The translations under genes and the position numbers were made by a program. 64,000 bases of DNA. Origin: an uncultured Actinomycetota bacterium (lineage in GTDB: Bacteria; Actinomycetota; Actinomycetes; Actinomycetales; Microbacteriaceae). How positions within the stretch are numbered: the first letter of the stretch is position 1; each line of letters opens with the position of its first letter. Location of the stretch: assembly GCA_963756345.1 (NCBI GenBank), contig CAVWNM010000001.1, positions 24,773 through 88,772 on the forward strand, in the 5' to 3' direction. Below the pieces are notes generated by a model, which saw nothing but the letters and a program-made list of their open reading frames with translations, was not told the origin of the DNA and searched no databases. This document shows positions 1 through 64,000 of the stretch, in pieces.

Positions 1-1025
1 TTCTCATCGTGGGTGACCTCGATCCAAGCAGGTCTGCTGCGCAGGCCGCGAAGCACGGCGTCCCGGCTTCGGGAAGCGCCGACGATGTGCTCGCGCATCC
101 TGACGTCGAGCTCGTCATCAACCTCACGATCCCCGCAGTGCACGCCGCCGTGTCATCCGCTGCGATCAGTGCGGGCAAGCACGTGTGGAGCGAGAAGCCA
201 ATCGCGATCGATCGCGCGAGCGCCGCCGCCCTGCTGGACCAGGCGGATGCCGCGGGACTGCGCGTCGGCGTGGCGCCCGACACGGTGCTCGGCCCAGGCG
301 TGCAATCCGCCAAGCGCGCGATTGAGCGCGGTGACATCGGGCGACCGCTCTTCGCGCAGACCACCATGCAGTGGCAGGGTCCGGAAATCTTTCATCCGGA
401 CCCCGCTTTTCTGTTCGCGACAGGTGCCGGGCCGCTTTTCGATATGGGGCCGTACTACTTCAGCACGCTCGTTCACGTGCTCGGGCCTGTGGCGTCGGTC
501 GCAGCTTTGGGGCTCAAGGCGCGCGAGAATCGTTCGGTGCTGGTCGGGCCAAAAGCGGGGGAGACCTTCCCCGTGGAGATTCCCTCCACCATCAATGTGC
601 TTGCCGAGTTTGAAGGCGGGGCGCATTCCCAGTCGATACTGAGCACGGACTCACCGCTGCTTCATCAGGGGTTTGTTCAGATATCAGGCACAGAGGGCAC
701 GATCCTGCTGCCCGATCCGAACATGTTCACCGGTCGCTCGTCACTCATCCGGCCACTCGCGAGCATCGATTCGAAACAAGAATGGGTCGAATTGGCCGAG
801 GAGGGCGTCGTGGTCGGACGCGGCCTTGGGGCGCTCGACATGGCCCGCGCTATTCGCGGCGGAACCCCCCACCGAGCGACCGGCGAGCTGGGGTACCACG
901 TGCTTGACACGATGCTCGCCGCGGAGGAGTCGGCCGAATTGCGCGAGTTCGTCGAGGTGCGCAGCACGGCTGATCCCATCGAGGCCATGCCGGTTGACTT
1001 TGACCCGTTCGCTGCGAGTCTCTGA
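1..1025 (+). CDS. Gfo/Idh/MocA family NAD(P)-dependent oxidoreductase (5' end outside window)
   Basis: ORF 9..1025 is open to the window edge. It contains conserved Gfo/Idh/MocA motifs (EKPIAID, GPYYFSTLVHVLGP, C-terminal alpha/beta domain). It is a clear paralog of the minus-strand gene at 1845..3084. Confidence 0.8.
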   Translation, partial: LIVGDLDPSRSAAQAAKHGVPASGSADDVLAHPDVELVINLTIPAVHAAVSSAAISAGKHVWSEKPIAIDRASAAALLDQADAAGLRVGVAPDTVLGPGVQSAKRAIERGDIGRPLFAQTTMQWQGPEIFHPDPAFLFATGAGPLFDMGPYYFSTLVHVLGPVASVAALGLKARENRSVLVGPKAGETFPVEIPSTINVLAEFEGGAHSQSILSTDSPLLHQGFVQISGTEGTILLPDPNMFTGRSSLIRPLASIDSKQEWVELAEEGVVVGRGLGALDMARAIRGGTPHRATGELGYHVLDTMLAAEESAELREFVEVRSTADPIEAMPVDFDPFAASL

Positions 1026-1063
1026 CGCCGCCGGAAGTCGGTGCCCGAACCTAGCATGGCGGT

Positions 1064-1870
1064 ATGCCAGAGCAGGTGGAGGCGTGGTGGGCACGCAGGC
1101 AGTCGTCGAAGGGCGCGACCACGCCGTATCCGGTCGGGACGTTCCGGGATGCGTGGATGCGATATCCGGTGCTGATCCGCCAATACCACCCCGACCTCAA
1201 CTTCGGGATTGTGTTGAGCCAGATCCCGCCCGCCGCTGATGTGTACCTGCTCTGGCAATGCGAGAGTGGCCATCTTTTTGTCGCGACACCGTGGGAACAG
1301 CGACAGCGACCCGGTCGTAGTCGCCGACGATCGACGTGGTGTCCCGAGTGCTCGATGGGGGCGACAGGACGGTCAGCTGCCGCTCCTCGCAGGAAGCCGG
1401 CTGCCGACCTGTGCCCGAAGACTCCCTCGCTGGCTGTCGGCGTGCCATTTCACAGCGAGTGCGCGCCGCGCCCGGCATCCGCTGCCGAGGAATTGCTCAG
1501 ACAGAAGCTCGCCGCGCGACTGATGTTCCAGGGCGGCTTGAACGCGGTGCGGGTCGCCCGCCCATTCTTCACGCACCTCGAGGTGTGGCCGGACATTGTC
1601 ATTTCGGAACTTATGGTCGCCATCGAATACGACACCACCGGCCGCGACGGGCTCGAGCATGTCGGCGCGAGGGAATCGGTCGATCGCCGCAAGGATCGGT
1701 TGCTTCGCCGCACCGGGTGGGAGGTCGTTCGCGTGCGGGGAGGGAAGCTGCACCACATTGGGCCGTTCGATGTCTCCGGTGCGACCGTGACGGGGAAACT
1801 CATCGATCGAGTGGTTGATCGACTCTGCGAGATTCGGGGAGATCTCATCGTGAACTCCTACCTCGTCTGA
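1064..1870 (+). CDS. zinc-ribbon + DUF559-like (restriction-endonuclease-fold) domain protein
   Basis: ORF 1064..1870 has an N-terminal treble-clef/zinc-ribbon signature (WQCESGHLF ... CPECS). The C-terminal region resembles DUF559 / very-short-patch-repair-like endonuclease fold proteins (IEYDTTGRDGLEH ... GWEVVRVRGG). Family assignment is from motif memory, not a search. Confidence 0.55.
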   Translation: MPEQVEAWWARRQSSKGATTPYPVGTFRDAWMRYPVLIRQYHPDLNFGIVLSQIPPAADVYLLWQCESGHLFVATPWEQRQRPGRSRRRSTWCPECSMGATGRSAAAPRRKPAADLCPKTPSLAVGVPFHSECAPRPASAAEELLRQKLAARLMFQGGLNAVRVARPFFTHLEVWPDIVISELMVAIEYDTTGRDGLEHVGARESVDRRKDRLLRRTGWEVVRVRGGKLHHIGPFDVSGATVTGKLIDRVVDRLCEIRGDLIVNSYLV

Positions 1871-3084
1871 CAACCCTGGGCGCCGCCGCCCGACTTTGCT
1901 CGAGAACTGCTGCCAGGTTCAGAAGGTCCGGGCGGCGGGATTCCAATCGACATCCAGTCGGTATGGGCTTAGTAACGTTCGAGGTCACGTCGACTGGCAG
2001 GCGGGACTCCGCTGCGTCCGAGATGGCGAGCAGCACATCGAGTACGTGGGCGGCGAGAGCACCGCTCGCGCGCTCGGGTTCACTGCCCCGAATGGCTCGG
2101 GCCAGGTTCAACACTCCCGAGCCGCGCCCATACGTGGAGCCAGTCGCGGTGAGAGTGAGGGGTTCCGTGTGGCCGAAGCGCCACAGCGTGGAGTCGCCGT
2201 CAAAGGTGTTCGGATCAGGCAGGACGATTGTTCCCTCTGTGCCACTGATCTCCACGAATCCCGCGCGTGGCAGGGCGTTTTGGAAGCTGAACGTCGATTG
2301 TGCCGACTGTCCGCTCAGCGAACTCGACGAGGGCGGCGTAGTGCGTCGGCACCTCGACCGGGAACTCGCTCCCGGCACGCGGGCCACTACCAATCGTGCG
2401 CACGAGCGACGACTTTGACGAGACAGCGCTCACTCGGCTGGCAGCACCGAACGCGTGCACGAGCGTCGTGACGTAATACGGGCCCATATCGAACAGCGGC
2501 CCTGCCCCGTGGGCGAAGAGGAACTCCGGGTTGGGGTGCCAGGCCTCCGGGCCGGGGACGTGAAACATCGTTGTCGCCGTCAGCGGCTCGCCGATATCAC
2601 CGCGGGCGATTGCGCGCATGGCTGTTTGGATGCCCGCACCGAGCACCGTGTCAGGTGCGCAGGCGACTCGAACGCCCGCCGCGTCGGCGGCGGCGAGAAG
2701 AGCCGCACCCCCTTGGTGGTCGAGAGCGAGCGGCTTCTCGCTCCAGACGTTCTTGCCGGCCGCAATGATGAGCTCGCCGACCTCCGTGTGGACGGCCGGG
2801 ATGGTGAGGTTCACGACTATCTCGATCTCGTCCATCGCGAGGAGCTCGTCAACGGAGCCGTGTCCAGGCACCCCGTAGGCTTCGGCCTGCGCACGTGCGC
2901 GGCTTGGATCGAGGTCGGCGATGAACAGGACCGACAGATCCGGGAACGCCGTCATGTTCTCCAGATAGGTGTTACTGATCACTCCTGCGCCAATGAGGCC
3001 GACGCCGACCGGCCCTGAGATGGACATGTGTTTCTCCCTGGTGGTGGTGGGTGAATCTGCGGTTTCCGCCGCGGTGAAAGACAA
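1845..3084 (-). CDS. Gfo/Idh/MocA family oxidoreductase, apparent frameshift near 2310-2330
   Basis: N-terminal Rossmann part is in ORF 2215..3084 (GLIGAGVISNTYL, EKPLALD, GPYYVTTLVHAFG). The C-terminal part continues in ORF 1845..2393 (FVEISGTEGTIVLPDP), which aligns residue-for-residue with the paralog at 1..1025. The join requires a 1-nt shift. Confidence 0.75.
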
Positions 3085-7027: not shown

Positions 7028-7976
7028 ATGACCGTTGCGCCAATGCGGCTCGCCTCGAAGGGGGGCTCGGCTCGCCGGGTCCCCCTTCGGGTGGTCGTCC
7101 TCTTCATCCTTCCCGCCTTCGCTCTGTTCGCGGTCTTCCTCCTCTTTCCCCTACTGCAGGCGGTGAGCTACAGCTTCTTCGATTGGAAGGGGACGCGTCA
7201 GCAGGGCTTCATCGGAATTGACAACTACATAAGGCTGTTCACAGATCTGCCCTTCTCTGAGCAGATTCCGAGAGCACTCGGGCACAACCTCCTCTTCTTC
7301 GCCGGAACCGTTGTGCTTCAGAACAGCATCGGACTCTTCCTGGCCGTCCAGCTCCAGCGCTTTCAAGCGGATGCGGCGCCTGTTCCAGACGCTGTACACC
7401 ACCCCGTACCTGGTCAGCCCGCTTGTCGTCGGCTACCTGTGGAGCCTGCTGCTCTCGCCGCAATTCGGGCTGGTCAACGAAGCTCTCCGGGTCGTGGGCC
7501 TGGACGCGCTCGCCCTGCCCTGGCTCGGCGACCCGACGCTCGCACTGCCCGTCCTCATCCTGATCAGCGTCTGGCAATGGATGGGATTCCCCGTTCTGCT
7601 CTATGGCGCAGCCCTGGGAGGGCTTCCCGTCGAGTTGAACGACGCTGCCGCCATCGACGGAGCGAACGGATGGAAGCGGTTCAGGTACGTGACGGGGCCG
7701 ATGCTGACACCCGTCATCGGTACGGTGTCGATCCTGACCTTCATCTCGAGCATGGAGGTGTTCACCCTCGCGTACGCGGTGGGAGGCTCCACGGGCTCGC
7801 CCGCCGGCGCAACAGACGTCTTGAGCCTGCTGTTCTATCGGGTCTCGTTCCAATCTGGCCTCATCGATGCGCTCGGACTCTCGTCAGCGCTGGCGACCCT
7901 GATGCTCATCTTCATCTTCGGCGGCGCCGTGCTCGCCACCCGACTGCTTGCTCGACAAGAGCGGAAACTCTCATGA
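7028..7976 (+). CDS. carbohydrate ABC transporter permease (MalF/UgpA-like), apparent frameshift near 7355-7375
   Basis: N-terminal TM segments are in ORF 7028.. . The body is in ORF 7311..7976 (FQTLYTTPYLVSPLVVGYLW ... EAA-loop region DAAAIDGANGWKRFRYVT). The two frames join only with a 1-nt shift. Confidence 0.75.
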
Positions 7977-8842: not shown

Positions 8843-9784
8843 GTCCGGCGCGACCGGATCGCCGGGTGGTCTGCATCGGGGAGGCCATGGCACAGATCGT
8901 GCCCGCCACTCCCGAATCCCTGCTGACGGCGCCGTACTTTCTGCTGCGGCACGGTGGCGCCGAGACCAATGTTGCCGTCACGCTTGCGGCCCTCGGTACA
9001 CCAGCAGCCTGGTTCGGGCGTCTGGGTGACGATGCTCTCGGGCATCGCATCCGCGCTGAGGTGAAAGCGCAGGGCGTCGACGTTTCGCTCGTCGTGCTCG
9101 ATCCGAGCGCGCGCACCGGGGTCTTCTTCAAGGACCCGGATCCAGAGGCTCGACGCGTGCTGTATTACAGGGATGACTCCGCAGCATCCCGAATGAACGC
9201 ACGCGACATCGAGGGCATCGAACGGGCCGACCCGCTGTGGATCCATGTGAGCGGGGTAACCGCCGCGCTGTCACCCAGCTGCCTCGCCGCCGTCGAGGAG
9301 GTGATCGACCGCGCTGGTCGAGCATCCATCCCCATCAGCTTCGACATCAACTACCGCCCCGTGCTGTGGTCGGATCGCGATACCGCCGCGCAGACACTTC
9401 GAGCGCTGGCTCTTCGCGCAACGGTCGTCTTCGTCGGCCTGGATGAAGCGGACTGACCTCTGGGGCGCGACCACTGCAGCGGACGTTCGTGAACTGCTCC
9501 CGGAGGTGCCCATCCTTGTGGTGAAGGACGGCCCGATCGCAGCGACAGAATTCGGGTCGGATCACACGGTGGCCGTGCCTGCGCTCCAGGTCGAGGTTGT
9601 TGAGTCGGTTGGCGCCGGAGACGCTTTCGCCGCAGGCTGGATCCACGGATTCCTCAACGGTAGCGACGCTGCTGACCGTCTGACCCTCGGCCACCTCACG
9701 GCCCGCGAGGCCCTGCTCAGCACCACGGACCAGGGCGACCTCACCGCACTCGCGAGCCTGCGCCTCGTCGGGATGACGCCGTGA
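8839..9784 (+). CDS. kdgK: PfkB-family sugar kinase, 2-dehydro-3-deoxygluconokinase-like, apparent frameshift near 9440-9460
   Basis: ORF 8839..9456 holds the N-terminal ribokinase-fold part. ORF 9443..9784 carries the C-terminal GAGDAF anion-hole motif. GTGA start/stop overlap with the upstream permease. Specific KdgK assignment is inferred from the neighbouring aldolase. Confidence 0.7.
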
Positions 9785-10404
9785 CCGGTGTGGGCGCGCT
9801 CAGTGCCGCGTACTTCACTGAGGCACTGCCGGCTGGCTCGATCCTCGCGATCCTGCGAGGACACGAAGTCGATCGCACCCTTGCGCTCGCGGAGTCAGTC
9901 TGGGCAGCCGGAGTGAACCTCGTCGAAATCCCGGTTCAGGATTCGCGCTCTCTCGTCGCACTGCGCGAGACGGTCGCACTCGGGAGGAGTCTCGGCAAAG
10001 AGGTAGGAGCGGGAACGATTGTCTCGACCGAGCTCGTCGCCAGGGTGAGGGAGGCGGGAGCAGCGTTCACGGTCGCGCCGGGTCTGGACCCGCTCGTTGT
10101 CGCCGCCAGCGAGGAACACGGCCTTCCCCACCTCCCGGGCGTGTTTACACCGAGCGACATTCAGTCGGCACTCAGGGCCGGATTCTCGTGGATGAAGCTG
10201 TTCCCTGCCGCGGTGCTCGGCCCAGCCGGGTTGCGGCAGCTTCGAGGCCCGTTTCCCGACGTCACCTTCGTTGCGACCGGCGGGGTGGAGGTCGACAGCG
10301 CCGAGGCGTACTTCAGGGCGGGCGCTCGCGCCGTGGGCATTGGCAGTGCGGTCGAGTCAATCACGGCGGCAGACGTTGGCGAGCTGGAGCATGGCGGTGC
10401 CGCA
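9781..10404 (+). CDS. eda: 2-dehydro-3-deoxy-phosphogluconate (KDPG/KDPGal) aldolase; reads in-frame into the downstream dehydratase as given
   Basis: ILAILRGHEVDRTLALAESVWAAGVNLVEIP and TFVATGGV are KDPG-aldolase signatures. A normal about 208-aa length ends at 10404. No in-frame stop occurs before the dehydratase ATG at 10405. A TGA in the +1 frame overlaps that ATG (ATGA). Confidence 0.7.
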
Positions 10405-15902: not shown

Positions 15903-17929
15903 CAGCTCAACGTCGCGTCGGTCGACGTGTTCTGGGCGCACAGGTGTGGTTCGCGCCGGACGAGTACGACACCGATGCCGAGATCGATGCTGTCTTCGAC
16001 ACGATGGCCCGGCATCAGATGCTGCTGGCCAGGGTGAGTCTGAACTGGAACTACGTCAACCCATCACCGGGCGTGTGGGACTTCGACCTTTTCGACCGGG
16101 TGTTCGCCTCGGCTCACCGGCACGGAGTGCAGATCACCGCAACGATCTGGCCGCAGGGCAAGTCAGCGACGCTCGGCAACGTTCCTGATACCAGCGACCG
16201 CTGGAGGATGGGCGAGGAGTACCTCGCCCGCGTCATCGAACACTTCCGGCACGCACCCGCTCTCGAAAGCTGGGTGGTCATGAACGAGCCGGGACAGCCG
16301 CCCGCCGAGACGCCGTTCGCACGCCAGCGATTCCGCGCATGGCTGAGCGATCGGTACGGAACTATCGACGAGCTCAACACGGCATGGATACAACGAAGCG
16401 CACTGACTCCTCATGCCCCGTTCGCGAGTTTCGACGAGATCGAATTCCGCGAAGCCGACTTCGACCCCGTGGTCTGGCTTGTGCCGCTGATGGACTGGCA
16501 GGAGTTCTGGCGAGACCACCTGGCCTGGTACATGGGGTGGGTCGCCGCACAGGTTCGACGTATCGATCCGGACCACTCGCTTCATGCGAACCCCCACGGC
16601 GTCATCGCCAACCTCGCGGGCCATTCCTTCGACTTCCCCCAGTGGCGGGAGTTCCTGGACTCCCTGGGGGTGTCGATCTATCCGCTGCATATGCGAGCTT
16701 TCGGTGCGCAGCGGCACACGCTCGCGTTCTCCTACGTGATCGAACTTCTTCAGGGCGCCATGGGCACGAAACCTGTGTGGGTGACGGAGCTCGTGGGTGG
16801 ACACGTGCACTTCTCCCACGACAGCGCCTATTCGCCAGACCCGATCCAGCTCGCCCAGTGGCTCTGGGTCTCATACGCCAGCGGCGCCGAGCGCGTAGTC
16901 ATGTGGATGCTCAACGGCCGATGGAAGGCACGGGAGGCGGGCGAGTTCAGCCTTCTCGACTATCTGCGCCGTCCAACCGACCGACTCAGAGCGATTTCGG
17001 ATGTCATCACGTGCATCAATGAGGACCTCGACGGCCTGGAGGGCTCCGAGCCCATGGTCGCCAATGTGACTCTGCTGGTGAGTCCCGAGACGATGTCCCA
17101 GCAGTGGATCAGAGAGAAGAGCGATGGAGCACCGGGTCGGGGCAAGGACGCGCACCTGCTGAGCCTGCTCGGAGTGTTCGAAGCGCTCGCCGCGCTCGGA
17201 GTGGCCCCGGCGATCGCCCATGCCGACGACTTCGGGTGGGAGGACTCACGCGCGGAACCGCATCTGCTGATCGTGCCCCACGTCACGGTGATGAGCTCTG
17301 AGTTGCTGTCGCGCCTGCAGAGCTTCGTGCAGTTGGGTAACCATGTCGTGATCGAGGGGCATTCTGGTTTCTACGATCGCACCGGCATGTTCTGGCCAAT
17401 GGAGAAGGTGTTCCCGCTCGAAGCTCTGGTGGGCGCGCGACCGATCGAGATCGAGCTGCCCGCGCACGACATCGAATTGTTGTTGGGGGATGGAGCGCCG
17501 CTCTCGATGCACATGTGGGAAACGAAGCTCGAAATCACGACCGGAGCAACGATCGCCTCCGTCGAGGGCAGACCAGCCGGAACCCAGCAAGGAACCGTGG
17601 TGTGGCTTCCGCAACTGCTGGGGTTGGCCTCGTTCCAGGGCAGTCCGCAGCGACTCGCCGAGGCTCTCGCCCCTCTGGTCGAACCTTTCCGCACAGATCC
17701 GTTCCGACTCACGTCGACTCCCGGGGCCATCGTGCTCCGTACACTGCGGTTGCGCGATGGCTACCTCACGGTCGTTGCCAACCAGACCTCGGAGGCGCAG
17801 GTGGTGAGGCTTGAGGCTCCCACGGGATTTATCGGCGAGTCCGTTGCCGCGTCGGCGGAGTTTGACTCACAGGGTGACTGCGAGTTGAGCGCTCACTCGA
17901 CGGTCGTCACGCGATGGCGTCTGCCGTGA
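15899..17929 (+). CDS. glycoside hydrolase family 42 (beta-galactosidase / alpha-L-arabinopyranosidase-like)
   Basis: 676 aa. GH42 catalytic-region motif WVVMNEPG, a trimerisation-type middle domain and a C-terminal beta-sandwich. ATGA overlap with the lactonase. Confidence 0.75.
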   Translation: MTAQRRVGRRVLGAQVWFAPDEYDTDAEIDAVFDTMARHQMLLARVSLNWNYVNPSPGVWDFDLFDRVFASAHRHGVQITATIWPQGKSATLGNVPDTSDRWRMGEEYLARVIEHFRHAPALESWVVMNEPGQPPAETPFARQRFRAWLSDRYGTIDELNTAWIQRSALTPHAPFASFDEIEFREADFDPVVWLVPLMDWQEFWRDHLAWYMGWVAAQVRRIDPDHSLHANPHGVIANLAGHSFDFPQWREFLDSLGVSIYPLHMRAFGAQRHTLAFSYVIELLQGAMGTKPVWVTELVGGHVHFSHDSAYSPDPIQLAQWLWVSYASGAERVVMWMLNGRWKAREAGEFSLLDYLRRPTDRLRAISDVITCINEDLDGLEGSEPMVANVTLLVSPETMSQQWIREKSDGAPGRGKDAHLLSLLGVFEALAALGVAPAIAHADDFGWEDSRAEPHLLIVPHVTVMSSELLSRLQSFVQLGNHVVIEGHSGFYDRTGMFWPMEKVFPLEALVGARPIEIELPAHDIELLLGDGAPLSMHMWETKLEITTGATIASVEGRPAGTQQGTVVWLPQLLGLASFQGSPQRLAEALAPLVEPFRTDPFRLTSTPGAIVLRTLRLRDGYLTVVANQTSEAQVVRLEAPTGFIGESVAASAEFDSQGDCELSAHSTVVTRWRLP

Positions 17930-42610: not shown

Positions 42611-44067
42611 TTGCACCGAAAGGGATCGACTTTGGTTAACCGCCGCAGCACCGAGGATGACGACGCTTCGCCAGACTTGGTCGATTCACTCGAGGACGAC
42701 TCGACAAATCCCGAACCGCAGGATGAGTCGGAGTCGAGCGAAGAGCCGGTAGCGACGAGTCCGCCAGCGACGAGTCCGCCAGCGACGAGTCCGCCAGCGA
42801 CGAGGTCGCGGTGATCGGTCATGACGAGCCCGAGCCCGAGCCCGAGCCCGAGACGGAAAGCGTCACATTCACCATGTCGCTGCCCGTGCAGGTGCGTGTA
42901 ACTCCGGATGACGAGGTTGCGGTGTCGATCTCGGAAGTCGCCATCAACCCCGACTACATGGATGTCTCAGGCCCGGCCACGACGACGGTCACCATGATGG
43001 CCGAGCAGGTCGCGACCATGCCCGAGACAACGACGGATGAGGTTGTCATCCCGGCACTCCCGACGGCGGACGATGTCTACACACGTCGCGGGCGGCAGCG
43101 CGGCGAGATCTCGGCGGCCCCCGAACCCGCCACGATGCTCACCGCTGAGCGCCTGATCGCCAGGGGCAAAGGGAGAAGGAACCCGGCGCCCGAAGGTTTC
43201 TGGCAGCACTTCCTGTACACGGCGACGTTCCACAATGTGAATGTCGGAGACTCGTTTTCCGCGCGCCATCGCAAATCCGTTGATGCTCGAATCAGCAAGT
43301 CCTTCGAGGGCAGCACGCGGTTTGTGGCTGTGTTGACTCGCAAGGGCGGCGTTGGCAAGACCACCATCTCGGCGCTGCTGGGCATGGCAATGGCCGACGT
43401 CCGCGAGGACAGGGTCATCGCGATCGATGCAAACCCCGACCGCGGAACCCTGGCGGAGCGCATCACCAAAAACACCCGAGCTACGGTCCGTGACGTGATC
43501 ACCCGAGCACGCTCGGTCAGCACCTTCAGCGAATTCCAGACGCTGATCTCCCGGGACGAGACCAGGATGGACGTGCTGGCGTCAGACGCAGATCCAACCG
43601 TGTCTGAGGCTTTCGATGAGGACGACTACAACGTCGTCGCCGACATCGCCGAGCGTTTCTACTCTGTTGCGATCACCGACTGCGGCACAGGCATGCTGCA
43701 CTCCGCCATGAGCGCGACTCTGCAGCGGGCAGACTCCATCATCATCGTCTCCGGGGGAAGCGTTGATGAGGCGAGGCTCGCCTCGGAGACGCTGACCTGG
43801 CTTGAGTCGAACGGGTACCCAGAGCTGGTCAAGAACGCCGTCGTCGCACTCAACACCGCGACGCATGGCACCAACCTGGTGAAGCTCGAAGAGATCGAGG
43901 CACATTTCCAGTCGAGGGTCAGGGCCATTGCGCGCATCCCATACGATTCGTCCCTCGCCACGGGCTCGGTGATCAGGTATTACTCGCTCAAGCCAAACAC
44001 GCGCAACGCCGCGCGGGAGTTGGCTGCCATCGTCGTCGATGGCCTCGACGCGCAGCGGACATCCTGA
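42611..44067 (+). CDS. MinD/ParA-like P-loop ATPase with long acidic, repeat-containing N-terminal extension; apparent frameshift near 42745
   Basis: ATPase core in ORF 42811..44067 (VAVLTRKGGVGKTT). The upstream ORF 42611..42814 is acidic low-complexity. In the downstream frame the repeats read DESASDESASDESASDEVAVIGHDEPEPEPEPE. That continues the acidic tract, so one protein with a 1-nt indel is more likely than two genes. Confidence 0.55.
42751..42853. repeat. in-frame coding microsatellites: 15-bp unit GCGACGAGTCCGCCA x about 3.3, followed by (GAGCCC) x about 5
   Basis: Read directly. Both unit lengths are multiples of 3. They encode (DESAS)n and (EP)n in the frame of the downstream MinD-like ORF. 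Confidence 0.7.
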
Positions 44068-46544: not shown

Positions 46545-47490
46545 GTGCAAGCAATAGGAATTGACATCGGTGGAACCAAGATCGCGGGCGCCGTGGTGAC
46601 AGAGGGCGGCCTCATCATCGATGAGGAGAGAGTCGCCACCAATGCCGGCGATTCAGAGGCCATCATCGAGGCTGTGGTCGAGATGGTGCAGAGTCTGGCC
46701 AGTCGTCATCCCGTGAGCGCAGTGGGTGTAGCTGCGCCCGGCTTCATCGATGTCGAACAGTCGACGGTGTACTACACGCCCAATATCAACTGGCGGAATG
46801 AGCCACTGCGGGATCGCCTCACGTCCAGACTTGCGCTCCCCGTCACGATCGACAATGACGCGAACGCTGCCGGGTGGGCCGAGTTCAGGTTCGGCGCGGG
46901 GCGAACCGTCAACGACATGACCATGCTGACCATCGGGACAGGGGTCGGCGGAGCCATTGTCACCCGCGGCGCCCTGTTCCGCGGAGGCTTCGGCACGGGC
47001 GCCGAAATCGGCCACATGCGAATCGTCCCCAACGGGTTGCCCTGCGGTTGCGGAGCCCGCGGCTGCATCGAACAGTACGGTTCAGGGCGCGCACTTCTCA
47101 GAATGGCGAACGAGATCGCCGATGTCGGCGGAATCGGTCTGCCGCTGGCAGAGGCCAGGCGACTTGAGGGCGAGTTGGACGGCGCGATCGTGGGCGCCTT
47201 CATCTCCGAGAGAGACCCTGGCGCGCTTCGAGCCCTGGAGCAGCTGGGTCACTGGCTCGGCCAGGCGTGTGCCTCGCTCAGCGCGGTGCTTGACCCCGAG
47301 AGTTTTCGTGTTCGGCGGCGGAGTCTCCGTAGCCGGTGACCTGCTGCTCGACCCGATTCGGGATTCATACCGCGAGAATTTGCCGGCTCGCGGCTACCAC
47401 CCCGAGCCCGAGTTCGTCATCGCCGAGCTCGTCAATAACGCAGGCGTGGTCGGTGCCGCAGATCTTGCTCGGTCGAGCCTGCTCGCCTGA
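46545..47490 (+). CDS. ROK-family glucokinase, apparent frameshift near 47285-47310
   Basis: IGIDIGGTKIAGAVV N-terminus. ROK CxCGxxGC zinc motif (CGCGARGCIE). C-terminal part (VFGGGVSVAGDLLLDPI) in ORF 46957..47490. GTG start about 46545. Confidence 0.75.
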
Positions 47491-50058: not shown

Positions 50059-51103
50059 ATGAAAGCTCTCCAGTATCGCGAAATCGGTTCAGCGCCCGTC
50101 GTCGTAGAGATCCCAGACCCCGAGCCAGGACCCGGCCAGGTACTGCTGAAGGTCACCGCTGGCGGCGTTTGCCACTCTGACCAGTTTCTGATGAGCCTGC
50201 CTCAGGATCAGTACGACGCCTTCGGCTTCGGGCTTCCCCTTACCCTCGGCCACGAGGGAGCGGGAACTGTGGAATCGATCGGCGCTGGAGTGACGGGCAT
50301 CACACTCGGGGAGTCGATGGCCGTCTACGGGCCGTGGGGCTGCGGGCGTTGCCACATGTGCTGCCCAGGGCAAGGAGAATTATTGCACCGAGGCCGCGCG
50401 CCTCAGCATCCAGCCGCCCGGGCTGGGCGCACCAGGGTCGATGGCGGAGTACCTGCTGGTCGACGACGCCCGGCATCTCGTTCCGCTGGGCGACCTCGAT
50501 CCTGTCGCCAACGTGTCGTTGACAGACGCGGGTCTCACGCCGTATCACGCGATCAAGATGTCACTGCCGAAACTGATCGCGGGATCCACTGCCGTGGTCA
50601 TCGGCGCCGGCGGACTCGGACATGTCGGCATCCAGATCCTTAAGGCGCTGTGCCCGGCGCGTGTGATCGCGGTCGATCTGAGCGAACAGAAGCTTGAGCT
50701 CGCCCGCGCTGTCGGAGCCGATGAGGCTATCCTGAGCGACGGCGACGCTGCTGCCGCGATCCGGGATCTCACCGGCGGACTCGGGGCTGTTGCGGTCTTC
50801 GATTTCGTGGGCGCACAGCCAACCGTCGAATTGGCGGGCGCTGTGGTCGCGGTCGAGGGTGACCTCACTATTGTCGGCATCGGCGGCGGGATGCTGCCCG
50901 TCGGCTTCGGTTCTGTGCCGTATGACGTAGCCGTGCGTGCGCCGTACTGGGGAAGCCGTTCCGAACTCATGGAGGTGCTCGATCTCGCCCGCGTCGGCAA
51001 GATTTCCGTCGAGACTGAGACTTTCTCGCTCGCCGACGCACCAGGCGCATACGAGAAGCTGCACGCTGGCACCATCCGCGGACGCGCTGTCATCGTCCCC
51101 TGA
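50059..51103 (+). CDS. zinc-dependent alcohol dehydrogenase (MDR family), apparent frameshift near 50380-50390
   Basis: GHEGAG and Cys cluster (GCGRCHMC) in ORF 50059... The continuation (ENYCTEAARLSIQPPGLGAPGSMAEYLLV...GAGGLGHVGIQ) is in the frame of ORF 50441..51103. Confidence 0.8.
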
Positions 51104-51123
51104 CGCGGCAGGCCGCCGTTCGG

Positions 51124-53179: not shown

Positions 53180-54539
53180 TCAGCTGAGTTCGGCGTACCA
53201 GGATCGTGCCGAGGCTTCCCACTGTGCGTAGGCGTCTGGGAACTCGGAGATCTGCACGGATTGAGCGGCGACGGTGAGCGACATCGACTCCCAGCCGCGG
53301 ATATCCAGCAGCCCCCTGGTGCGACCGGCGTTGGGGTTGGAGATGCCGCCATAGAAGAGCCGCGCAGCGTAGGAGGGCGTGGTGAGCTGCGTGACCGTGC
53401 CCCAGCCGGCGCTCGGACGCTGCTGAAAGAGCCCAACCGAGTCGCGATCGCCCCAGGTCAGGTTGCGAAGCGTCGATTCCTGCATCGCGGTGGCGAGAGC
53501 AATGACAATGCCCTGGCTCGAGACTCCCAGCTCGTGACCAACCTGAACGATGACGGCGGCGTTCGACCGCATCTCCTCGTTCAGTAGGGTCACGCTCGAG
53601 CCGGCTGACGCTGGCGCGATCGAGGCAGGGGCTGCCAGTGAGCCTGGAATCGCAAGCGTCTCGCCCGAGAAAATCAGGCTCGATGCCTGCAAGTCCGTTT
53701 GCCTCGAGAAGCGCAGCTTCGCTGACGCCAAGGGTGGCTGCGATCCCGCTGATGGTGTCGCCGGAAACAATCGTGTAAGAGCCGCCGGATGCCAGCGCAG
53801 AGGTGTGGGAGGCGAGATCGATAGCCAGCTCGGGCTCCATCGCGGCGGCCGGCACCAGGGTGGTCGGGATCGTCAGGCTCTGGTTGGGGAAGATCAGGCT
53901 CGACGCCCCGAGGCCATTCGCACTTAACACGGTGGCAGTCGACACTCCAAAACGCTCGGCGATCGAGCTGATGGTGTCTCCCGCGACGATCGTGTATTTG
54001 ACCGTGGGCGCGACCTCAACCACAGCCTCGACGGCTGGCGTCGAAGCTGACGGGCTACCGAGGGCGAGCACCTGACCGGGGAAGATGAGTGACGACCAGC
54101 CAAGTCCGTTCAGCGCGAGCACGGATGCAGTCGACAGTCCGAACTGGCCAGCAATGCTGCTGACAGTGTCGCCGGCCGCAACGGTGTACGACACGGGGCC
54201 CGCTGTTGTCGTCGAACGGACAATCGAAGCTGCCGTTGATTTGATGGCGGTGTTTGCCGCGGCCATGGCCTCGCGGATGGTCTTGCCCAGTTCAACCGCA
54301 GACGGGCGGTGTTTGAGCGCTGGCCGCGCCTCGGCAGGGGAGACCGGACCCGTGAGGTTGAGCGTCAGAGCCATCGAGCCCACAAGCAGCACGGAGCCGG
54401 TTGAGAAGACCGTGTGGGTGGCCTTGGTGCGGCGCGAGGATAGGCGTCGAAGCGGGGCGATTCTGGCCTGGGTGGCAGGTGCCAGTCCCGCGAAGACGCT
54501 CCTGGCCGCGTCATCCATGGAATCCGGGTTCCCTGTCAT
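53180..54539 (-). CDS. LysM-repeat (x3) secreted/membrane protein with conserved C-terminal domain, apparent frameshift near 53765-53790
   Basis: Three LysM repeats (YTVAAGDTVSSIAGQFG..., YTIVAGDTISSIAERFG..., YTIVSGDTISGIAATLG...) in ORF 53094..54638. C-terminal domain (MQESTLRNLTWGDRDSVGLFQQRPS) in ORF 53180..53770. The N-terminal region has a TM helix. Confidence 0.7.
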
Positions 54540-57395: not shown

Positions 57396-57520
57396 TTCAC
57401 AACCGCACCGACGTTGACGCTGACTCCCAGCCGTACGCCCTGGCTTTCTCCCCGATGCCAGGTCGCACCGGATGGGGATGAGCGTTCACGACACCGTGAC
57501 GGTGGGTCTCCCGGATAGCA

Positions 57521-58475
57521 ATGACAGACAACACGATCCACACCCCGGTCATGCTCGAACGCACCATCGAGCTCCTCGCCCCAGCTCTCGAACGCGACGG
57601 TGCTGTGCTCGTCGACGCGACGCTCGGGATGGCCGGCCACGCCGAATCTTTCCTCCAGCGCTTCCCGGGCATCACGCTCGTCGGCATCGACCGGGATCAG
57701 GATGCCCTCACTATCGCTCGCCGCCGGCTCGAGCCATTCGCTGACCGAGTGCATCTCGTGCATGCGGTGTACGACGAATTCGCCGCCGCGCTCGCCGGTC
57801 TCGGCATCCCCAAAGTTTCCGGGATCCTCTTCGATCTCGGGGTGTCGTCGCTGCAACTGGACAGGGTGGAGCGCGGCTTTTCCTACTCCAAGGACGCCCC
57901 GCTCGACATGCGGATGGACGCATCGAACGAGCGGACCGCGGCTCATATCCTCGCGACCTACAGCGAAGAAGAGTTGCGACGCATCTTTTACCAGTACGGC
58001 GACGAGAAGCTCGCTCCCCGATTCGCGAGCCGAATTGTGCAGCGCCGCGCTGAGAAGCCGCTCGAGACGTCAGCAGAGCTGGTTGAACTCGTGATCGCGG
58101 CGACTCCCGCAGCAGCACAGCGCGCAGGGCATCCGGCCAAGCGGGTCTTCCAGGCACTTCGCATCGAGGTGAACCAGGAGCTCTCGGTGCTGGAACGAGC
58201 GATTCCGGCCGCAGTCGACTCCCTCGAGGTCGGCGGGCGCATGGTCGTTCTCTCGTACGAGTCGCTGGAAGACCGGATCGTCAAGCGAGTGCTGCAGGCG
58301 CGATCCGCGTCCACGGCGCCGCGGGGTTTGCCCGTCGAGCTTCCCGAGCACCGACCCGAACTCAAACTGCTCGTACGCGGGGCAGAACTCGCCACAGAGG
58401 ATGAGAAATGGCGAAATCCTCGGCGCCACCCCGGTACGGCTCCGAGCCGTCGAGAAACTACGGGAGATCGCATGA
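57521..58475 (+). CDS. rsmH: 16S rRNA (cytosine1402-N4)-methyltransferase RsmH/MraW, apparent frameshift at a CCCC run near 58410-58425
   Basis: SAM motifs ([20 protein letters not shown]). The true C-terminus ...[13 protein letters not shown] is found in the +1 frame ending at TGA 58473..58475. The 511-aa ORF track entry fuses rsmH with ftsL. Confidence 0.85.
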
Positions 58476-59086: not shown

Positions 59087-60819
59087 ATGAGAACACGAAG
59101 CAGCCGCGCCCGGATCTCGCTTGCTGTTCTGGTGGTCTTCGCGATCGTCGCGGTATTCGTGGTGCGGCTGGTCGACATCCAGGTCGTACGCGCGGAGGAA
59201 TTCAACGCGGCATCCTCGACAAGCGCGGACAAGACATCACCACCTACGGCGTTCGCGGCGACATCGTCGACGCGCAACGGCAGTGCTGGCCGACAGCGTG
59301 TTGCGATACGACATCACGGCATCACCAAGAGTCGCCCTGCTTCCGACGGATGCCGCGACCTCAGTTCCGGCCCAGCTCGCCGAGATCGCGGCCCTTTCCG
59401 GGCAGGATCCGGCGGCGCTCTACGCGGCGATGACCGCGGACCCGACCTCCGACTTCATGTATCTGGTGAAGGGCGTCACTCTGGACGTCTTCGAGCAGAT
59501 CGACGCGCTCAACATTTCGTGGGTCTACCCCGAACGAAAGTCGGCGCGAAGCTACCCGAACGGTGAAATCGCGGGAAACCTGGTCGGGTTTATCGGCACG
59601 GATGGTCCGCAGGCCGGGCTCGAGCTGACCGAGAACGAATGCCTGGCGAGCGAGAACGGAACTCTCACCTACGAGCGGGGGGAGGACGGAACTGCGCTTC
59701 CCGGCAGCGAGGTCGTGACGGAGCAGAGCAAGGACGGCGGCACGCTTCGGCTAACCATCGACCGCGACCTGCAGTTCTACGTGCAGCAGCGGATGGAACA
59801 GACCGCGCTCGAGCTCGGTGCAACCTGGGCCACAGCCGTCGTCATCCGCGTGGCAGACGGCCACCTCATGTCCGTCGCCGACTGGCCCACCCTCGATCCC
59901 AACAATGTTGATGCCGCATCGCGGGATGCACTGGGATCACGTGCCTTCAGCACGCCATACGAGCCGGGTTCCACGATGAAGGCCCTCACGGCCGCATCGC
60001 TGGTCGATTCGGGCACAGTGAGCCCCGGAGACGGCGTTGTCGTGCCATACGAGCTTCTGCAGGCAGACGGCAGCTCGATCCACGACGCTTTCTACCACGA
60101 AACCCAAAACCTCACCCTCGCCGGAGCTCTGGTGGAGTCATCCAACGTGGCAGTTGCCCAGTTCACCGACAGGCTGTCTGCTGAGAAGCGCCACGATTAC
60201 ATGTCAGCGTTCGGTCTAGGGAAGTACACCGAGGTCGAGTTCAATGGCGAGTCGGCCGGCCAGCTCCTCCGACGCCGACCAGTGGTTTGGCCGCACGAAC
60301 TACGCGGTGCAATACGGCCAGGGCATGAGCGCGACCTCGGTGCAGATGGCAAGCGTCTTCCAGACGATCGGAAACCAGGGAGTCAGGATGCCGGTGACTC
60401 TCGTTGAGGGCTGTGAGCAGGCTGACGGCACGATGACGGACGTCGCATCCTCGGAGGGCACGCAGGTGCTTTCCACATCGGCGGCTGACCAGACCGTGGC
60501 GATGATGGAGCAGGTCGCGAACAAGAGCGGTTCGGCCCCGAAACTTCAGATTCCCGGCTACCGCACGGCCGTCAAGAGTGGAACCGCCGAGGTCGCAATC
60601 AATGGCGGATATTCCGACAACAGCGTGGTGATCTCGTACGCAGGGGTCGCTCCAGCCGACGATCCCCAGTACGCGGTCGTGGTGACCGCAGGCATCCCCG
60701 CTAGGGTGTTCTCGGGACTAATCGCCCCTACCTGGCGCGATGTTATGGCCCAGACCCTCACCACTTTCCGGGTGCCGCCGTCAACGACGCCGGCCCCGGA
60801 CCTTCCCGTCAACTGGTGA
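59087..60819 (+). CDS. ftsI: penicillin-binding protein 2/3 (FtsI-type transpeptidase), at least 2 apparent frameshifts (near 59230-59300 and 60255-60275)
   Basis: N-terminal TM plus VRLVDIQVV in ORF 59078... Dimerisation domain and the transpeptidase STMK motif (GSTMKALT), with a following TLAGALVESSNV stretch, in ORF 59121..60407. KSGTAE (KTG box) in ORF 60244..60819. Confidence 0.8.
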
Positions 60820-60910
60820 GAAACCAGCAATTCGACGGGCAGGAGCACCAGGTAGCTATGTACGGTTCATGCATTCACCACCACGACGACAGCCCGAGCA
60901 CGGTCTCTCG

Positions 60911-62313
60911 ATGATCGACCTTCGCGTTGACGAAATCGCCGCCGCAATCGACGGCAGGCTGGTCGGAGTTGTGGATGCCGCGGCCCTGATCGTGGGTGGC
61001 GCTGTAGAGACCGACTCACGTCTCGTCGGCCCAGGTTCTGTCTTCTTCGCGCTTCCCGGCGAACACTCCGACGGCCACCTCTTCGCGCAGGCCGCCGTGG
61101 ATGCGGGCGCGGCGCTGCTCGTGGTGCAGCGCGAGCTGCCGATCACCGTTCCACAGCTCGTGGTGGATGACGGACTGCTCGCGCTTTCCGCACTCGCCCG
61201 CGAGGTCGTCGCGCGCGTCAGGGCCAGCGGCGATCTCAAGGTCGTTGCCGTCACCGGATCGAACGGCAAGACGACGACGAAGAACATGCTGCGGGCGATT
61301 CTGGCCGACCAGGGTTCGACTGTCGCGCCCCAGGGTTCGTTAACAACGAGGTGGGGGCCCCGATCTCGATCCTCGGCGTCGAGGCATCCACGCGCTTCCT
61401 CGTGGTCGAGATGGGAGCAGACGCCATCGGTGACATCACGAAGCTTGTCTCTATCGCTACCCCAGACGTGGGAATCGTTCTGACCGTCGGGTTTGCGCAC
61501 ATCGGCAAATTCGGCAGCGCTGATGCCATCGAGCTCGCCAAGTCGGAGATGGTCAGCGGCCTGCCGACCACCTCGATCGCGGTGTTGAACGCAGACGATG
61601 GCCGAGTCAGCCGGATGGCGGCGGTCACCGCGGCGCCCGTCTCCTGGTTCGGGTTGGATGCCGCTGCCGATGTCAGGGCCATTGACGTCGACACGACTGT
61701 GGACGGCACATCGTTCACGGTCGTCGCCGATGGCGAGTCCCACCCGGTGCGCCTGCGCATCCTGGGCGAACATCACGTCACGAACGCTCTCGCCGCAATC
61801 ACCGCGACCAGGGCCCTCGGCATTCCCGTCGTCGACGCCATTCGGTCTCTTGAGTCGCTCACCCGGGCCGAACGATGGCGAATGGAGCTCACCGAGAGCC
61901 CCGATGGCGTGATCGTCATCAACGATGCGTACAACGCAAGCCCTGATTCGGTCGCTGCCGCCCTGAAAACTCTCGCCCAGGTGACCGGTGCCGAGCGGCG
62001 GTCGTTCGCCGTTCTCGGAGAGATGGCCGAACTCGGCGAATTCGCGGACGACGAACACGATCGCATCGGCCGGCTCGTGGTGCGGCTAAACGTGAAGCAA
62101 CTCATTGTCGTTGGGCACAACGCACGCCACATTCACAACGCCGCTGGTCTCGAGGGCTCGTGGGATGGGGAGTCGATATTCGTCCAGACCGCCGATGAGG
62201 CATACGATGTGCTGCGTGACAAACTGCGCAAGGGGGACGTTGTGCTCGTGAAGTCATCCAATTCGGCGGGGCTGCGTTTCCTCGGTGACCGACTGGCGGG
62301 GATCAGCGCGTGA
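60911..62313 (+). CDS. murF: UDP-N-acetylmuramoyl-tripeptide--D-alanyl-D-alanine ligase, apparent frameshift at a G5/C4 run near 61335-61350
   Basis: MurF N-terminus ([15 protein letters not shown]). P-loop [11 protein letters not shown]-terminal MurF signature [15 protein letters not shown] (MurE would have DYAHTPDAL). Pieces in ORFs 60740..61483 and 61351..62313. Confidence 0.8.
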
Positions 62314-63407
62314 TCCCTCTACTCGTTGCAGGCGGAACCGGACTCCTGTTCACGCTGTTCCTCACGCCCCTGTTCATTAAGCTGTTCAATCGCCTCAAGT
62401 GGGGGCAGTTCATCCGGGATGACGGCCCGCAGGCCCATCACACGAAGCGCGGTACGCCCACCATGGGCGGCATCATCTTCATCCTCGGTTCGATAGTTGG
62501 CTACGTGGTCGGCCACATTGTCGGCCGCACCGACATGACGCTCGTGGGTCTTCTCGTGATCTTCCTCATGGTGGGTCTGGGCTCAGTGGGCTTCATTGAC
62601 GACTTCATCAAGACTCGCAACCAGCGCAGCCTCGGGCTGGGTGGCTGGTCGAAAGTGCTCGGCCAGGTGATCGTGGCTGCGATCTTCGCGGCGATTGCGC
62701 TCAACTTCCCCGACGAAAACGGACTAACTCCCGCGTCGACGATGATCTCCGTCGTGAGGGACGTGCAGTGGCTCAACTTCGCCACCTTCGGCGTCATCGG
62801 CGCCGCCATTGCCTTCGCCCTGTGGTCGACCCTGATCATCGTGAGCGCATCCAACGGTGTGAACGTGGCTGACGGGCTCGACGGGCTCGCTACCGGCGCT
62901 GCAATCTTCTCCCTCTCCGCCTACATCTTCATCGGGTTCTGGCAGGCCAACCAGGCCTGCTACAACACGAACCTGCTCGACGAAAACCAGGCGTATTGCT
63001 ACAACGTTCGGGATCCGCTCGACCTCGCGGTGATCGCCGCGGCCATCGTCGGCAGCCTCGTCGGGTTCCTCTGGTACAACACGTCACCGGCACAGATCTT
63101 CATGGGCGACACCGGCTCCCTCGGGCTCGGCGGCGCCATCGCCGGCCTCGCGATCATGACCCGAACCGAGGTGCTGCTCGTGCTGATCGGCGGGCTGTTC
63201 ATCCTGGTCACCGGATCCGTCATTCTGCAGAGGGCATATTTCAAGGTGTCGAGGGGAAAGCGCATCTTCCTCATGAGCCCGCTTCACCATCATTTTGAGC
63301 TCAAGGGGTGGGCCGAGATCACGGTGGTCGTGAGATTCTGGATCATCGCTTCGCTGTTCGTGGCTGCAGGCGTCGGTCTCTTCTATCTCGAATGGGTCAC
63401 ACGGTAG
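62310..63407 (+). CDS. mraY: phospho-N-acetylmuramoyl-pentapeptide transferase
   Basis: 10-TM MraY with conserved motifs (TPTMGG, GLDGLA, GDTGSL). Confidence 0.9.
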
Positions 63408-64000
63408 CTGTGCGCGATCTCGAAAACCTCACCAGCTGGCACTCAGAATGGCGCGGGCTGCGTGTTGTCGTGCTCGGCCTCGGAGTCACTGGATTCGCTG
63501 CCGCTGACACTCTGGCCGAACTAGGAGCGGAAGTTCTCGTCGTGGCGTCCTCCGCGGGGGAGCTTCGGCGCCAGATGCTTGACGTGATCGGTGGTCGCTT
63601 CGTCGAGCATTCGCGTCAGGGGGAGGTCCCGTCCGAACTCGACGAGATGCACGCCGATCTCGTGATCGTGTCACCCGGCTTCGGCCTGGATCATCCGCTG
63701 GTGGCGTGGGCGCAGGCCAGCGGCATCCCGATCTGGGGCGACATCGAGCTCGCGTGGAGGCTGCGCGACAAGGTCGGCGACCCCGGCCGAGTGGATCGCC
63801 GTCACGGGCACCAACGGCAAGACCACCACTGTGCAGCTGACCACGCACCTGCTGGTTGCCAGCGGTCTGCGGGCGGTGCCCGCCGGAAATATCGGTGTGC
63901 CCGTGCTCGATGCGATTCGCGATCCGCAGGGCTTCGACGTGATTGTGGTCGAGCTGTCGAGCTTTCAATTGCACTGGATGCCCCGAACCGGCCCCGGCGC
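63404..64000 (+). CDS. murD: UDP-N-acetylmuramoylalanine--D-glutamate ligase (3' end outside window), apparent frameshift at a CCCC run near 63780-63790
   Basis: GTG 63404 overlaps the mraY stop. Rossmann N-terminus ([22 protein letters not shown]). After a 1-nt shift it reads [23 protein letters not shown]...[12 protein letters not shown]. Not in the ORF track because there is no in-window stop and the frame is split. Confidence 0.75.

What the first reader, a model, noticed from the sequence alone, without database searches (positions are those of the whole stretch)
1..64000. Pervasive apparent frameshifts in conserved genes, most likely indel errors at G/C homopolymers rather than pseudogenes
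At least about 20 strongly conserved genes are each split across two or more reading frames. They are a Gfo/Idh oxidoreductase, an ABC permease, kdgK, a small Cys protein, the PRTase, flotillin, the M4 protease (x3), emfourin-like, pyc (x2), the MinD-like gene, the ROK glucokinase, the Zn-ADH, the LysM protein, rsmH, ftsI (x2), murF and murD. In every case the downstream frame continues the protein exactly where the upstream one stops. Where I could localise the shift it sits at a short C or G run, for example CCC at about 25088, CCCC at about 23803, 58415 and 63786, and GGGGG at about 61345. Essential genes (ftsI, murF, murD, rsmH, pyc) cannot all be inactivated. This pattern is typical of unpolished long-read or older homopolymer-prone data. 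It means any ORF-based annotation of this contig under-calls and fragments genes, and that apparent fusions such as eda-dehydratase need caution.
Basis: seen in the sequence. Interest (0 to 1): 0.55.

Follow-up and report, generated by a model that had tools for sequence, protein, structure and literature searches.

The report
Assembly-error frameshifts in a long-read genome
About 26 one- or two-base indels break 20 otherwise well-conserved genes in this window; they are consensus errors of a long-read metagenome assembly and not biology, and most look like two alternative bases of a strain polymorphism written side by side, not homopolymer slips.

Summary
The frameshifts are in the sequence. 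Frameshift-aware alignment to the intact orthologues of Salinibacterium sp. G-O1 finds 23 frame breaks in 18 of 54 genes. A Zn-ADH and a second Gfo/Idh gene add two more. An independent assembly resolves one ftsI break into two indels, giving 26 indels in 20 genes (22 insertions, 4 deletions). There are no in-frame stops, and the protein is as conserved after each break as before it.

They are artefacts. An independent 99%-identical assembly (L001) has ftsI, murF and murD intact. It carries 17 frameshifts of its own at other positions. A control MAG of the same clade has none in 8,148 codons.

Its "G/C homopolymer" localisation is mostly not:
- None of the 107 runs of 5 nt or more lies near an event.
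- 11 of the 22 insertions differ from both neighbouring bases.
- 53% of random positions lie within 10 nt of a G/C run of 3 or more.
- Two of the five quoted sites are assigned to the wrong run.

27 of 33 classified +1 sites (window plus L001) can be repaired by deleting either of two different adjacent bases, giving synonymous codons (null 46%, p = 2.6e-5). This suggests that both alleles of a strain SNP were kept in the consensus. The eda-dehydratase and rsmH-ftsL fusion ORFs are artefacts. Biological interest is low.

The parts
2310..2320 (-). +1 insertion in Gfo/Idh oxidoreductase #2. On the coding strand it reads GAG|C|GGA.
   Evidence: tblastn of the G-O1 Gfo protein switches from frame -2 to -3.
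7360..7361 (+). +1 insertion in ABC permease 1, reading CG[C][T]TT.
   Evidence: The gene is 100% identical at protein level to G-O1 on both sides of the break. It is a single 1-nt gap in a 91%-identical DNA alignment.
9453..9454 (+). +1 insertion in kdgK/PfkB, reading GA[C][T].
   Evidence: Pfam PfkB 2-195 then 196-296 of 302 in adjacent frames. Also.
10387..10388 (+). +1 insertion at codon 202 of 208 of eda. It creates the artificial 805-aa eda-dehydratase ORF at 9781-12198.
15906..15907 (+). +1 insertion at codon 4 of the GH42 beta-galactosidase, reading AG[C][T].
23793..23795 (-). +1 insertion in the 103-aa Cys protein, reading CC[C][G].
25079..25082 (-). +1 insertion in the phosphoribosyltransferase, reading CC[C][G].
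30433..30433 (+). +1 insertion in a 256-aa hypothetical gene, reading [C][T]TG.
32321..32322 (+). +1 insertion in flotillin, reading AC[G][C].
   Evidence: Pfam Band_7 and Flot fall in different frames. Also.
32969..32969 (-). +1 insertion in emfourin, reading TC[G][C].
33131..33131 (-). +1 insertion in the M4 protease near codon 329.
33509..33510 (-). +1 insertion in the M4 protease, reading TC[G][C].
   Evidence: Pfam Peptidase_M4_C 1-29 then 28-148 of 165 in adjacent frames. Also.
33641..33643 (-). +1 insertion in the M4 protease, reading CT[T][G].
40099..40100 (+). +1 insertion in pyc at codon 322, reading G[C]AG.
42005..42005 (+). +1 insertion in pyc at codon 957, reading CT[G][C].
   Evidence: Pfam PYC_OADA 1-123 then 141-200 of 201 in adjacent frames. 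Also.
42745..42755 (+). Frame break in the CbiA/MinD-like gene after about 40 codons. It is probably a -1 (GGG to GG) next to the SDESA repeats. This is the least certain event.
47300..47301 (+). +1 insertion in the ROK glucokinase, reading GA[G][A].
   Evidence: Pfam ROK 2-237 then 224-292 of 294 in adjacent frames. Also.
50361..50362 (+). +1 insertion in the Zn-ADH inside the CGRCHMC|AQGKENYC motif, reading TG[C][T].
   Evidence: Pfam ADH_N and ADH_zinc_N fall in different frames.
53692..53693 (-). +1 insertion in the LysM protein, reading CT[T][G].
   Evidence: G-O1 has a single 453-aa gene here. Also.
58422..58424 (+). +1 insertion at codon 301 of 317 of rsmH, reading CG[G][C]. It creates the artificial 511-aa rsmH-ftsL ORF at 57521-59056.
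   Evidence: The extra base is absent from L001 and G-O1.
59214..59214 (+). -1 deletion in ftsI (CCC to CC).
   Evidence: L001 has CCC. Also.
59274..59280 (+). Two indels in ftsI: a +1 reading GC[G][C] and a -2 (GGGG to GG).
60266..60267 (+). +1 insertion in ftsI (C to CC).
61340..61342 (+). -1 deletion in the Mur ligase annotated as murF (TTT to TT). It is not in the nearby GGGGG run.
63779..63784 (+). +1 insertion in murD (CCC to CCCC, or CC[C][G]).
57449..57449 (.). Intergenic window-specific -1 deletion (TT to T). It shows that the indels are not confined to genes.
   Evidence: Both L001 and G-O1 have the extra T.

Best explanation
The window is part of a 2.85-Mb single-contig genome of an uncultured Salinibacterium/Rhodoglobus-like actinobacterium (Microbacteriaceae) recovered from a metagenome, most likely by long-read assembly. 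Its consensus carries about 0.4 small indel errors per kb.

There are two error classes.

(A) About 22 single-base insertions. Most sit at a codon's degenerate position, so the sequence reads NN[X][Y] with NNX and NNY synonymous. I infer that co-assembled strains differed by a SNP there. The consensus step then explained half the reads as 'deletion of Y' and the other half as 'deletion of X', and wrote both bases.

(B) Four contractions of short homopolymers (3-4 nt).

None of this reflects the organism's DNA. The genes, including ftsI, murF, murD, rsmH and pyc, are intact in reality.

Shown: the indels exist, they break frames, they are absent from an independent near-identical assembly, and they are enriched at synonymous sites.
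Inferred: the sequencing platform and the 'both alleles kept' mechanism.
For: 1. Exact window proteins lie on a 2,852,951-bp contig held by NCBI and ENA. A sister contig is named contig_52824 in ENA assembly ERZ25039499, a naming style I recognise from Flye; this is my own inference.
2. There are 23 frameshifts against intact G-O1 orthologues across 16,463 aligned codons, with 92.4% identity and no in-frame stops. Segments after each break are as conserved as those before it.
3. L001 is 99.0% identical over 8.3 kb. It has ftsI, murF and murD intact and lacks all 7 genic indels (8 counting the intergenic one at 57449) that the window carries there. The window in turn lacks L001's three rsmH insertions. 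L001 carries 17 frameshifts of its own in 17.7 kb, 14 of them +1.
4. A control assembly, Rhodoglobus MAG GCA_053580015.1, shows 0 frameshifts in 8,148 codons against G-O1.
5. No homopolymer of 5 nt or more is near an event.
6. 15 of 19 window +1 sites and 12 of 14 L001 +1 sites can be repaired by deleting either of two different adjacent bases with synonymous outcome. Random insertion gives 46%. The combined binomial p is 2.6e-5.
7. At murD, both putative alleles are seen in relatives: CCG in L001 and CCC in G-O1.
8. Frameshift-truncated genes are a documented problem of long-read metagenome assemblies (PMC9262707, PMC13087279, 10.1101/2021.08.23.457338).
Against: - No reads are available, so neither the platform nor strain mixing at these sites is shown directly.
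- The independent-assembly test covers only the last 8.3 kb (7 genic indels plus one intergenic).
- The synonymous-site enrichment rests on 33 events and on a null that assumes uniformly placed, composition-weighted insertions. A context-biased polisher error could mimic part of it.
- Three +1 sites would require non-synonymous SNPs: eda, pyc at 40099, and Gfo/Idh #2. One, ftsI at 60266, is a plain base duplication.
- I found no paper describing the 'both alleles kept' artefact explicitly.
Confidence: 0.9

Rival explanations
1. Classical homopolymer-length miscalls at G/C runs, as in unpolished ONT R9, 454 or Ion Torrent data.
For: The four deletions are contractions of 3-4 nt runs. The insertions at 63781 (CCC to CCCC), 25080 and 23793 are compatible with run extension.
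Against: - 11 of the 22 insertions differ from both neighbours.
- 'Homopolymer-only' repairs account for 1 of 19, against 27% under random insertion.
- None of the 107 runs of 5 nt or more is within 8 nt of an event.
- Proximity to a G/C run of 3 or more is at chance level, 53% within 10 nt.
- Insertions outnumber deletions 22 to 4.
Confidence: 0.2
2. Random single-base insertion errors from low coverage or weak polishing, unrelated to strain polymorphism.
For: There is a strong insertion bias in two assemblies. There is no read evidence for strain mixing.
Against: Enrichment at sites where two different adjacent bases give synonymous codons is 27 of 33 against 46% expected, p = 2.6e-5.
Confidence: 0.25
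3. Genuine frameshift mutations: a strain loaded with recent pseudogenes, or genes expressed through programmed +1 frameshifting or transcriptional slippage.
For: The indels are present in the deposited sequence. Nothing else supports this reading.
Against: - The essential cell-wall genes ftsI (4 indels), murF and murD are all hit.
- A 99%-identical strain assembled independently lacks every one of the window's indels in the shared 8.3 kb.
- There are no nonsense codons, and constraint is not relaxed downstream of the breaks.
- Orthologues in G-O1 and in the Rhodoglobus MAG are unshifted.
- The contexts share no slippery motif.
Confidence: 0.02

Closest known systems
Indel-induced gene truncation in long-read (ONT or PacBio) assemblies, as measured by the IDEEL test and repaired by tools such as proovframe
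   Same: Single-base indels split conserved genes. The effect is seen as proteins shorter than their orthologues. It is worse in metagenomes and at low coverage (PMC9262707, PMC13087279, 10.1101/2021.08.23.457338).
   Different: The literature I read attributes these errors mainly to homopolymers. Here long homopolymers are clean, and insertions at non-run, mostly synonymous positions dominate.
Consensus errors at collapsed heterozygous or strain-variant sites in haplotype-collapsed long-read assemblies (from my own general knowledge; I did not find it described in the papers I read)
   Same: Two alleles compete at one column of the consensus. A 99%-identical second strain exists (L001), with about 0.8% SNPs.
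   Different: The specific outcome proposed here, both alleles written in tandem to give a +1 frameshift, is inferred from sequence signature only. It is not demonstrated with reads.
Pseudogene-rich decaying genomes (for example Mycobacterium leprae or recent host-restricted pathogens; from my own knowledge)
   Same: Many genes are interrupted by frameshifts.
   Different: Such genomes also carry nonsense mutations, deletions and relaxed constraint, and they spare essential cell-wall genes. None of that holds here.

Membership tests
Long-read assembly consensus indel artefact | Frame breaks relative to intact close orthologues, with the protein continuing exactly across the break. | tested here: met
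   23 events against G-O1 with continuous reference residue numbering. Pfam profile coordinates are continuous across frames.
Long-read assembly consensus indel artefact | The indels are not reproduced in an independent assembly of the same or a near-identical organism. | tested here: met
   L001 (99.0% identity) lacks all window indels in 55739-64000 and has different ones of its own. Only the last 8.3 kb could be tested.
Long-read assembly consensus indel artefact | Reads disagree with the consensus at the indel sites. | not testable with these tools
   No reads are available. Logan run ERR12037361 carries an exact window protein, but its DNA could not be fetched.
Homopolymer-length sequencing error | The indel changes the length of a mononucleotide run, and risk rises with run length. 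| tested here: not met
   Met for the 4 deletions and for at most about 6 insertions. Not met for 11 insertions that differ from both neighbours. None of the 107 runs of 5 nt or more is affected.
True pseudogenes or genome decay | Accompanied by nonsense mutations and relaxed constraint, and sparing essential genes. | tested here: not met
   0 in-frame stops in 16,463 codons. Identity is equal before and after the breaks. ftsI, murF and murD are hit.
Programmed ribosomal frameshifting | The shift is conserved in orthologues at a conserved slippery motif. | tested here: not met
   Orthologues in G-O1, the Rhodoglobus MAG and L001 are unshifted. The 19 contexts share no motif on inspection.

The most novel reading that the evidence does not exclude
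The indels are real in the DNA of this lineage: a very recent burst of single-base insertions, preferentially at synonymous sites, tolerated in essential genes through some form of +1 recoding. A milder and much more likely novelty (about 0.6) is methodological. On that reading, the +1 sites are a systematic 'both SNP alleles kept' consensus artefact. It can be recognised from the sequence alone, and it marks hidden strain polymorphisms.
Probability: 0.02. Interest if true: 0.85.

Novelty: not a real feature. Interest (0 to 1): 0.1.

Why it matters
The finding matters for annotation, not for biology. About a third of the genes in this window would be mis-called as truncated, split or fused. 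Examples are the 805-aa eda-dehydratase ORF and the 511-aa rsmH-ftsL ORF. Pseudogene counts, completeness estimates and pangenome statistics from this genome would be wrong, and protein databases already hold its fragments.

The practical lesson is that homopolymer-aware polishing would not fix most of these errors. Frameshift-aware, reference-guided correction or strain-aware consensus is needed. If the 'both alleles kept' signature is general, it offers a cheap read-free diagnostic for strain-collapsed long-read MAGs.

Tried and rejected
- GC3 frame plots and stop-to-stop GC3 filtering were too noisy at 64% GC to call frames. I replaced them with a codon-usage Viterbi segmentation and then with homology.
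The close relative, Salinibacterium sp. G-O1, was found through cluster membership instead.
- I looked for more near-identical independent contigs with the window DAHP synthase and with protein P0097. Neither is on record.
- Two JGI metagenome pattern scans spanning the permease and rsmH +1 sites were meant to see the two alleles in nature. Both returned no hits.
- A suspected frameshift in the MPAB/Lcp-like gene (34.3-35.3 kb) was rejected. The ORF 34346-35245 is intact, and the apparent truncation came from my own fragment clipping.
- A possible second break near 1961, at the C-terminus of Gfo/Idh #2, rests only on a 55%-identical paralogue and is left open.
- I considered a shared CAGC/CTGCAG-like methylation motif at the insertion sites from the contexts. 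I did not pursue it because the motif is not consistent across sites.
Full report
**What the window is**

The window is 64% GC. Nine of ten tested window proteins are found, residue for residue, on a single 2,852,951-bp contig held by NCBI and ENA. The exact MraY protein is also on ENA metagenome assembly ERZ25039499, contig_52824 (41.6 kb), fetched as L001. That contig name is in a style I recognise from Flye; the link to Flye is my own inference.

The 90%-identity clusters of these proteins contain Salinibacterium sp. G-O1, S. xinjiangense and Rhodoglobus MAGs. The organism is therefore a Microbacteriaceae genome recovered from a metagenome.

Salinibacterium sp. G-O1 (GCA_030063305.1, contig JASISV010000002.1) is syntenic with most of the window. 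I fetched it as loci L082, L083, L084, L087 and L089. DNA identity to the window is 82-93%.

**Checking the observation**

A codon-usage Viterbi segmentation suggested many same-strand frame switches. Pfam scans of the stop-free fragments then showed consecutive profile coordinates in adjacent frames:

| Gene | Profile coordinates in adjacent frames |
|---|---|
| kdgK (PfkB) | 2-195, then 196-296 of 302 |
| ROK | 2-237, then 224-292 of 294 |
| pyc (PYC_OADA) | 1-123, then 141-200 of 201 |
| M4 protease (Peptidase_M4_C) | 1-29, then 28-148 of 165 |
| Flotillin | Band_7 and Flot in different frames |
| Zn-ADH | ADH_N and ADH_zinc_N in different frames |

I then wrote a protein-to-DNA dynamic-programming aligner with explicit frameshift moves. 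I ran every G-O1 protein of the syntenic loci against the window. The result:
- 54 orthologous genes and 16,463 aligned codons, at 92.4% amino-acid identity.
- No in-frame stop codons.
- 23 frameshift events in 18 genes, with the reference residue numbering continuous across every break.
- Of the 23 events, 19 are +1, three are -1 and one is +2 (equivalent to -1).

Two genes without a G-O1 orthologue add one +1 event each:
- Zn-ADH at 50361-50362, inside the CGRCHMC|AQGKENYC zinc motif.
- Gfo/Idh #2 at about 2316.

L001 resolves one net -1 event in ftsI into a +1 and a -2. The total is 26 indels in 20 genes: 22 single-base insertions and 4 deletions.

The "small Cys protein" is the 103-aa CPVCG-containing gene, broken at 23795.

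As a specificity control, I ran the same aligner with G-O1 proteins against a Rhodoglobus MAG (GCA_053580015.1; loci L085 and L088). It gave 0 frameshifts in 8,148 codons.

**Errors or biology**

L001 aligns to window 55739-64000 at 99.0% identity, with 63 mismatches and 16 gaps.
- L001 has ftsI (577 aa), the Mur ligase annotated as murF (467 aa) and murD (515 aa) intact. These are exactly where the window is broken.
- The window's rsmH body is intact where L001 carries three insertions.
- Over its 17.7 kb, L001 has 17 frameshifts of its own against G-O1, 14 of them +1. None coincides with a window event.

Protein identity to G-O1 is the same before and after each break. For pyc it is 97%, 95% and 93% over 322, 635 and 175 residues; for ftsI it is 93%, 90%, 93% and 95%. 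There are no nonsense codons. An intergenic window-specific indel also exists at 57449.

Non-shared indels, no decay and hits in essential cell-wall genes leave assembly or consensus error as the only reasonable reading.

**Where the indels sit**

With L001 as a base-resolution reference:

|---|---|
| CCCC near 63786 | Correct: CCC to CCCC at 63781-63784 |
| CCCC near 58415 | Wrong run: CCCC is unchanged in L001; the extra base is a G at 58422 |
| GGGGG near 61345 | Wrong run: GGGGG is unchanged; a T of TTT is missing at 61340 |
| 25088 and 23803 | Ambiguous |

More generally:
- 53% of random window positions lie within 10 nt of a G/C run of 3 or more.
- None of the 107 homopolymers of 5 nt or more is within 8 nt of any event.
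- Eleven of the 22 insertions differ from both neighbouring bases and cannot be run-length errors.
- Only the four deletions are homopolymer contractions: CCC to CC, GGGG to GG, TTT to TT, and probably GGG to GG in the CbiA/MinD-like gene.

**A more specific mechanism for the insertions**

On the coding strand, most +1 sites read as a codon with two alternative bases at a degenerate position:

| Reading | Gene(s) |
|---|---|
| CG[C][T] | permease |
| GA[C][T] | kdgK |
| AG[C][T] | GH42 |
| CC[C][G] | PRTase, Cys protein, murD |
| AC[G][C] | flotillin |
| TC[G][C] | emfourin, M4 protease |
| CT[T][G] | M4 protease, LysM |
| CT[G][C] | pyc |
| GA[G][A] | ROK |
| CG[G][C] | rsmH |
| GC[G][C] | ftsI |
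| TG[C][T] | Zn-ADH |
| [C][T]TG | 256-aa hypothetical |

I formalised this. For each +1 event I deleted every base in turn and scored the local translation against the orthologue.
- Window: 15 of 19 events tie.
- L001: 12 of 14 events tie.
- Null: 46% in 20,000 simulated random insertions into the same genes.
- Combined binomial p = 2.6e-5.
- "Homopolymer-only" repairs are 1 of 19, against 27% expected.

At murD both putative alleles occur in relatives: CCG in L001 and CCC in G-O1.

My inference is that the assembled population contained strains differing by SNPs. L001 shows that such strains exist, at about 0.8% divergence. Under an indel-tolerant error model, the consensus step kept both alleles in tandem. 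This step is inferred and not shown, because no reads are available. I also did not find the artefact described explicitly in the papers I read, which attribute long-read frameshifts mainly to homopolymers and low coverage (PMC9262707, PMC13087279).

**Consequences**

The 805-aa eda-dehydratase ORF (9781-12198) is an artefact. G-O1 has separate genes of 208 aa and 597 aa, and a +1 at 10387, six codons before the eda stop, merges them. The 511-aa ORF at 57521-59056 is likewise rsmH fused to ftsL by the +1 at 58422. About one third of the genes in the window would be mis-annotated.

**Verdict**

The observation of pervasive frameshifts is confirmed and slightly under-counted. The "error, not pseudogene" interpretation is strongly supported. 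The homopolymer localisation is largely refuted and is replaced by an insertion-dominated, synonymous-site signature. This is not a biological feature, so interest is low apart from a modest methodological point.

Noticed in passing
window 60816-60911; L001 5084-5176; L082 8510-8601: Only one Mur ligase gene (467 aa, most similar to the gene that precedes mraY in relatives) lies between ftsI and mraY in the window, in L001 and in Salinibacterium sp. G-O1. Curtobacterium (L003) and MAG BP_150 (L002) have two there, murE and murF. One ligase gene must lie elsewhere in this clade.
   Followed up: partly
window 34329-35274, 49690-51124 and 25285-26337: Gene content differs from G-O1. The window has an MPAB/Lcp-like oxygenase gene, a Zn-ADH block, and a baeRF (bacterial aeRF1-like) family protein next to the phosphoribosyltransferase. 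None of these appears at the corresponding G-O1 positions. Window 1-4.5 kb matches G-O1 DNA located elsewhere, in L089.
   Followed up: no
window 27939-27953: There is an in-frame 15-nt insertion (AGCACTTTCGACTCC), a tandem duplication, near the 3' end of the AHSA1/SRPBCC gene relative to G-O1.
   Followed up: no
window 42750-42800: Three tandem 15-nt units (GACGAGTCCGCCAGC, encoding SDESA) lie in the acidic N-terminal region of the CbiA/MinD-like ATPase. The repeat number differs from G-O1, which makes the frame break here the least certain one.
   Followed up: partly
window 32702-34120 (minus strand): An emfourin gene sits directly downstream of a protealysin-like M4 protease that has a PLN propeptide. 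This inhibitor-protease pair is conserved in G-O1 and in the Rhodoglobus MAG.
   Followed up: no
L001 9159-11516: The 785-aa 'FtsW-MurG fusion' called on the sister contig is also an artefact. A +1 insertion at L001 10080 merges genes that are separate in G-O1 (426 aa and 359 aa).
   Followed up: yes
window 57748-58095: SNPs between the window and L001 cluster strongly in rsmH: about 25 of the 63 mismatches fall within 350 bp. This may reflect recombination or local strain mixing.
   Followed up: no
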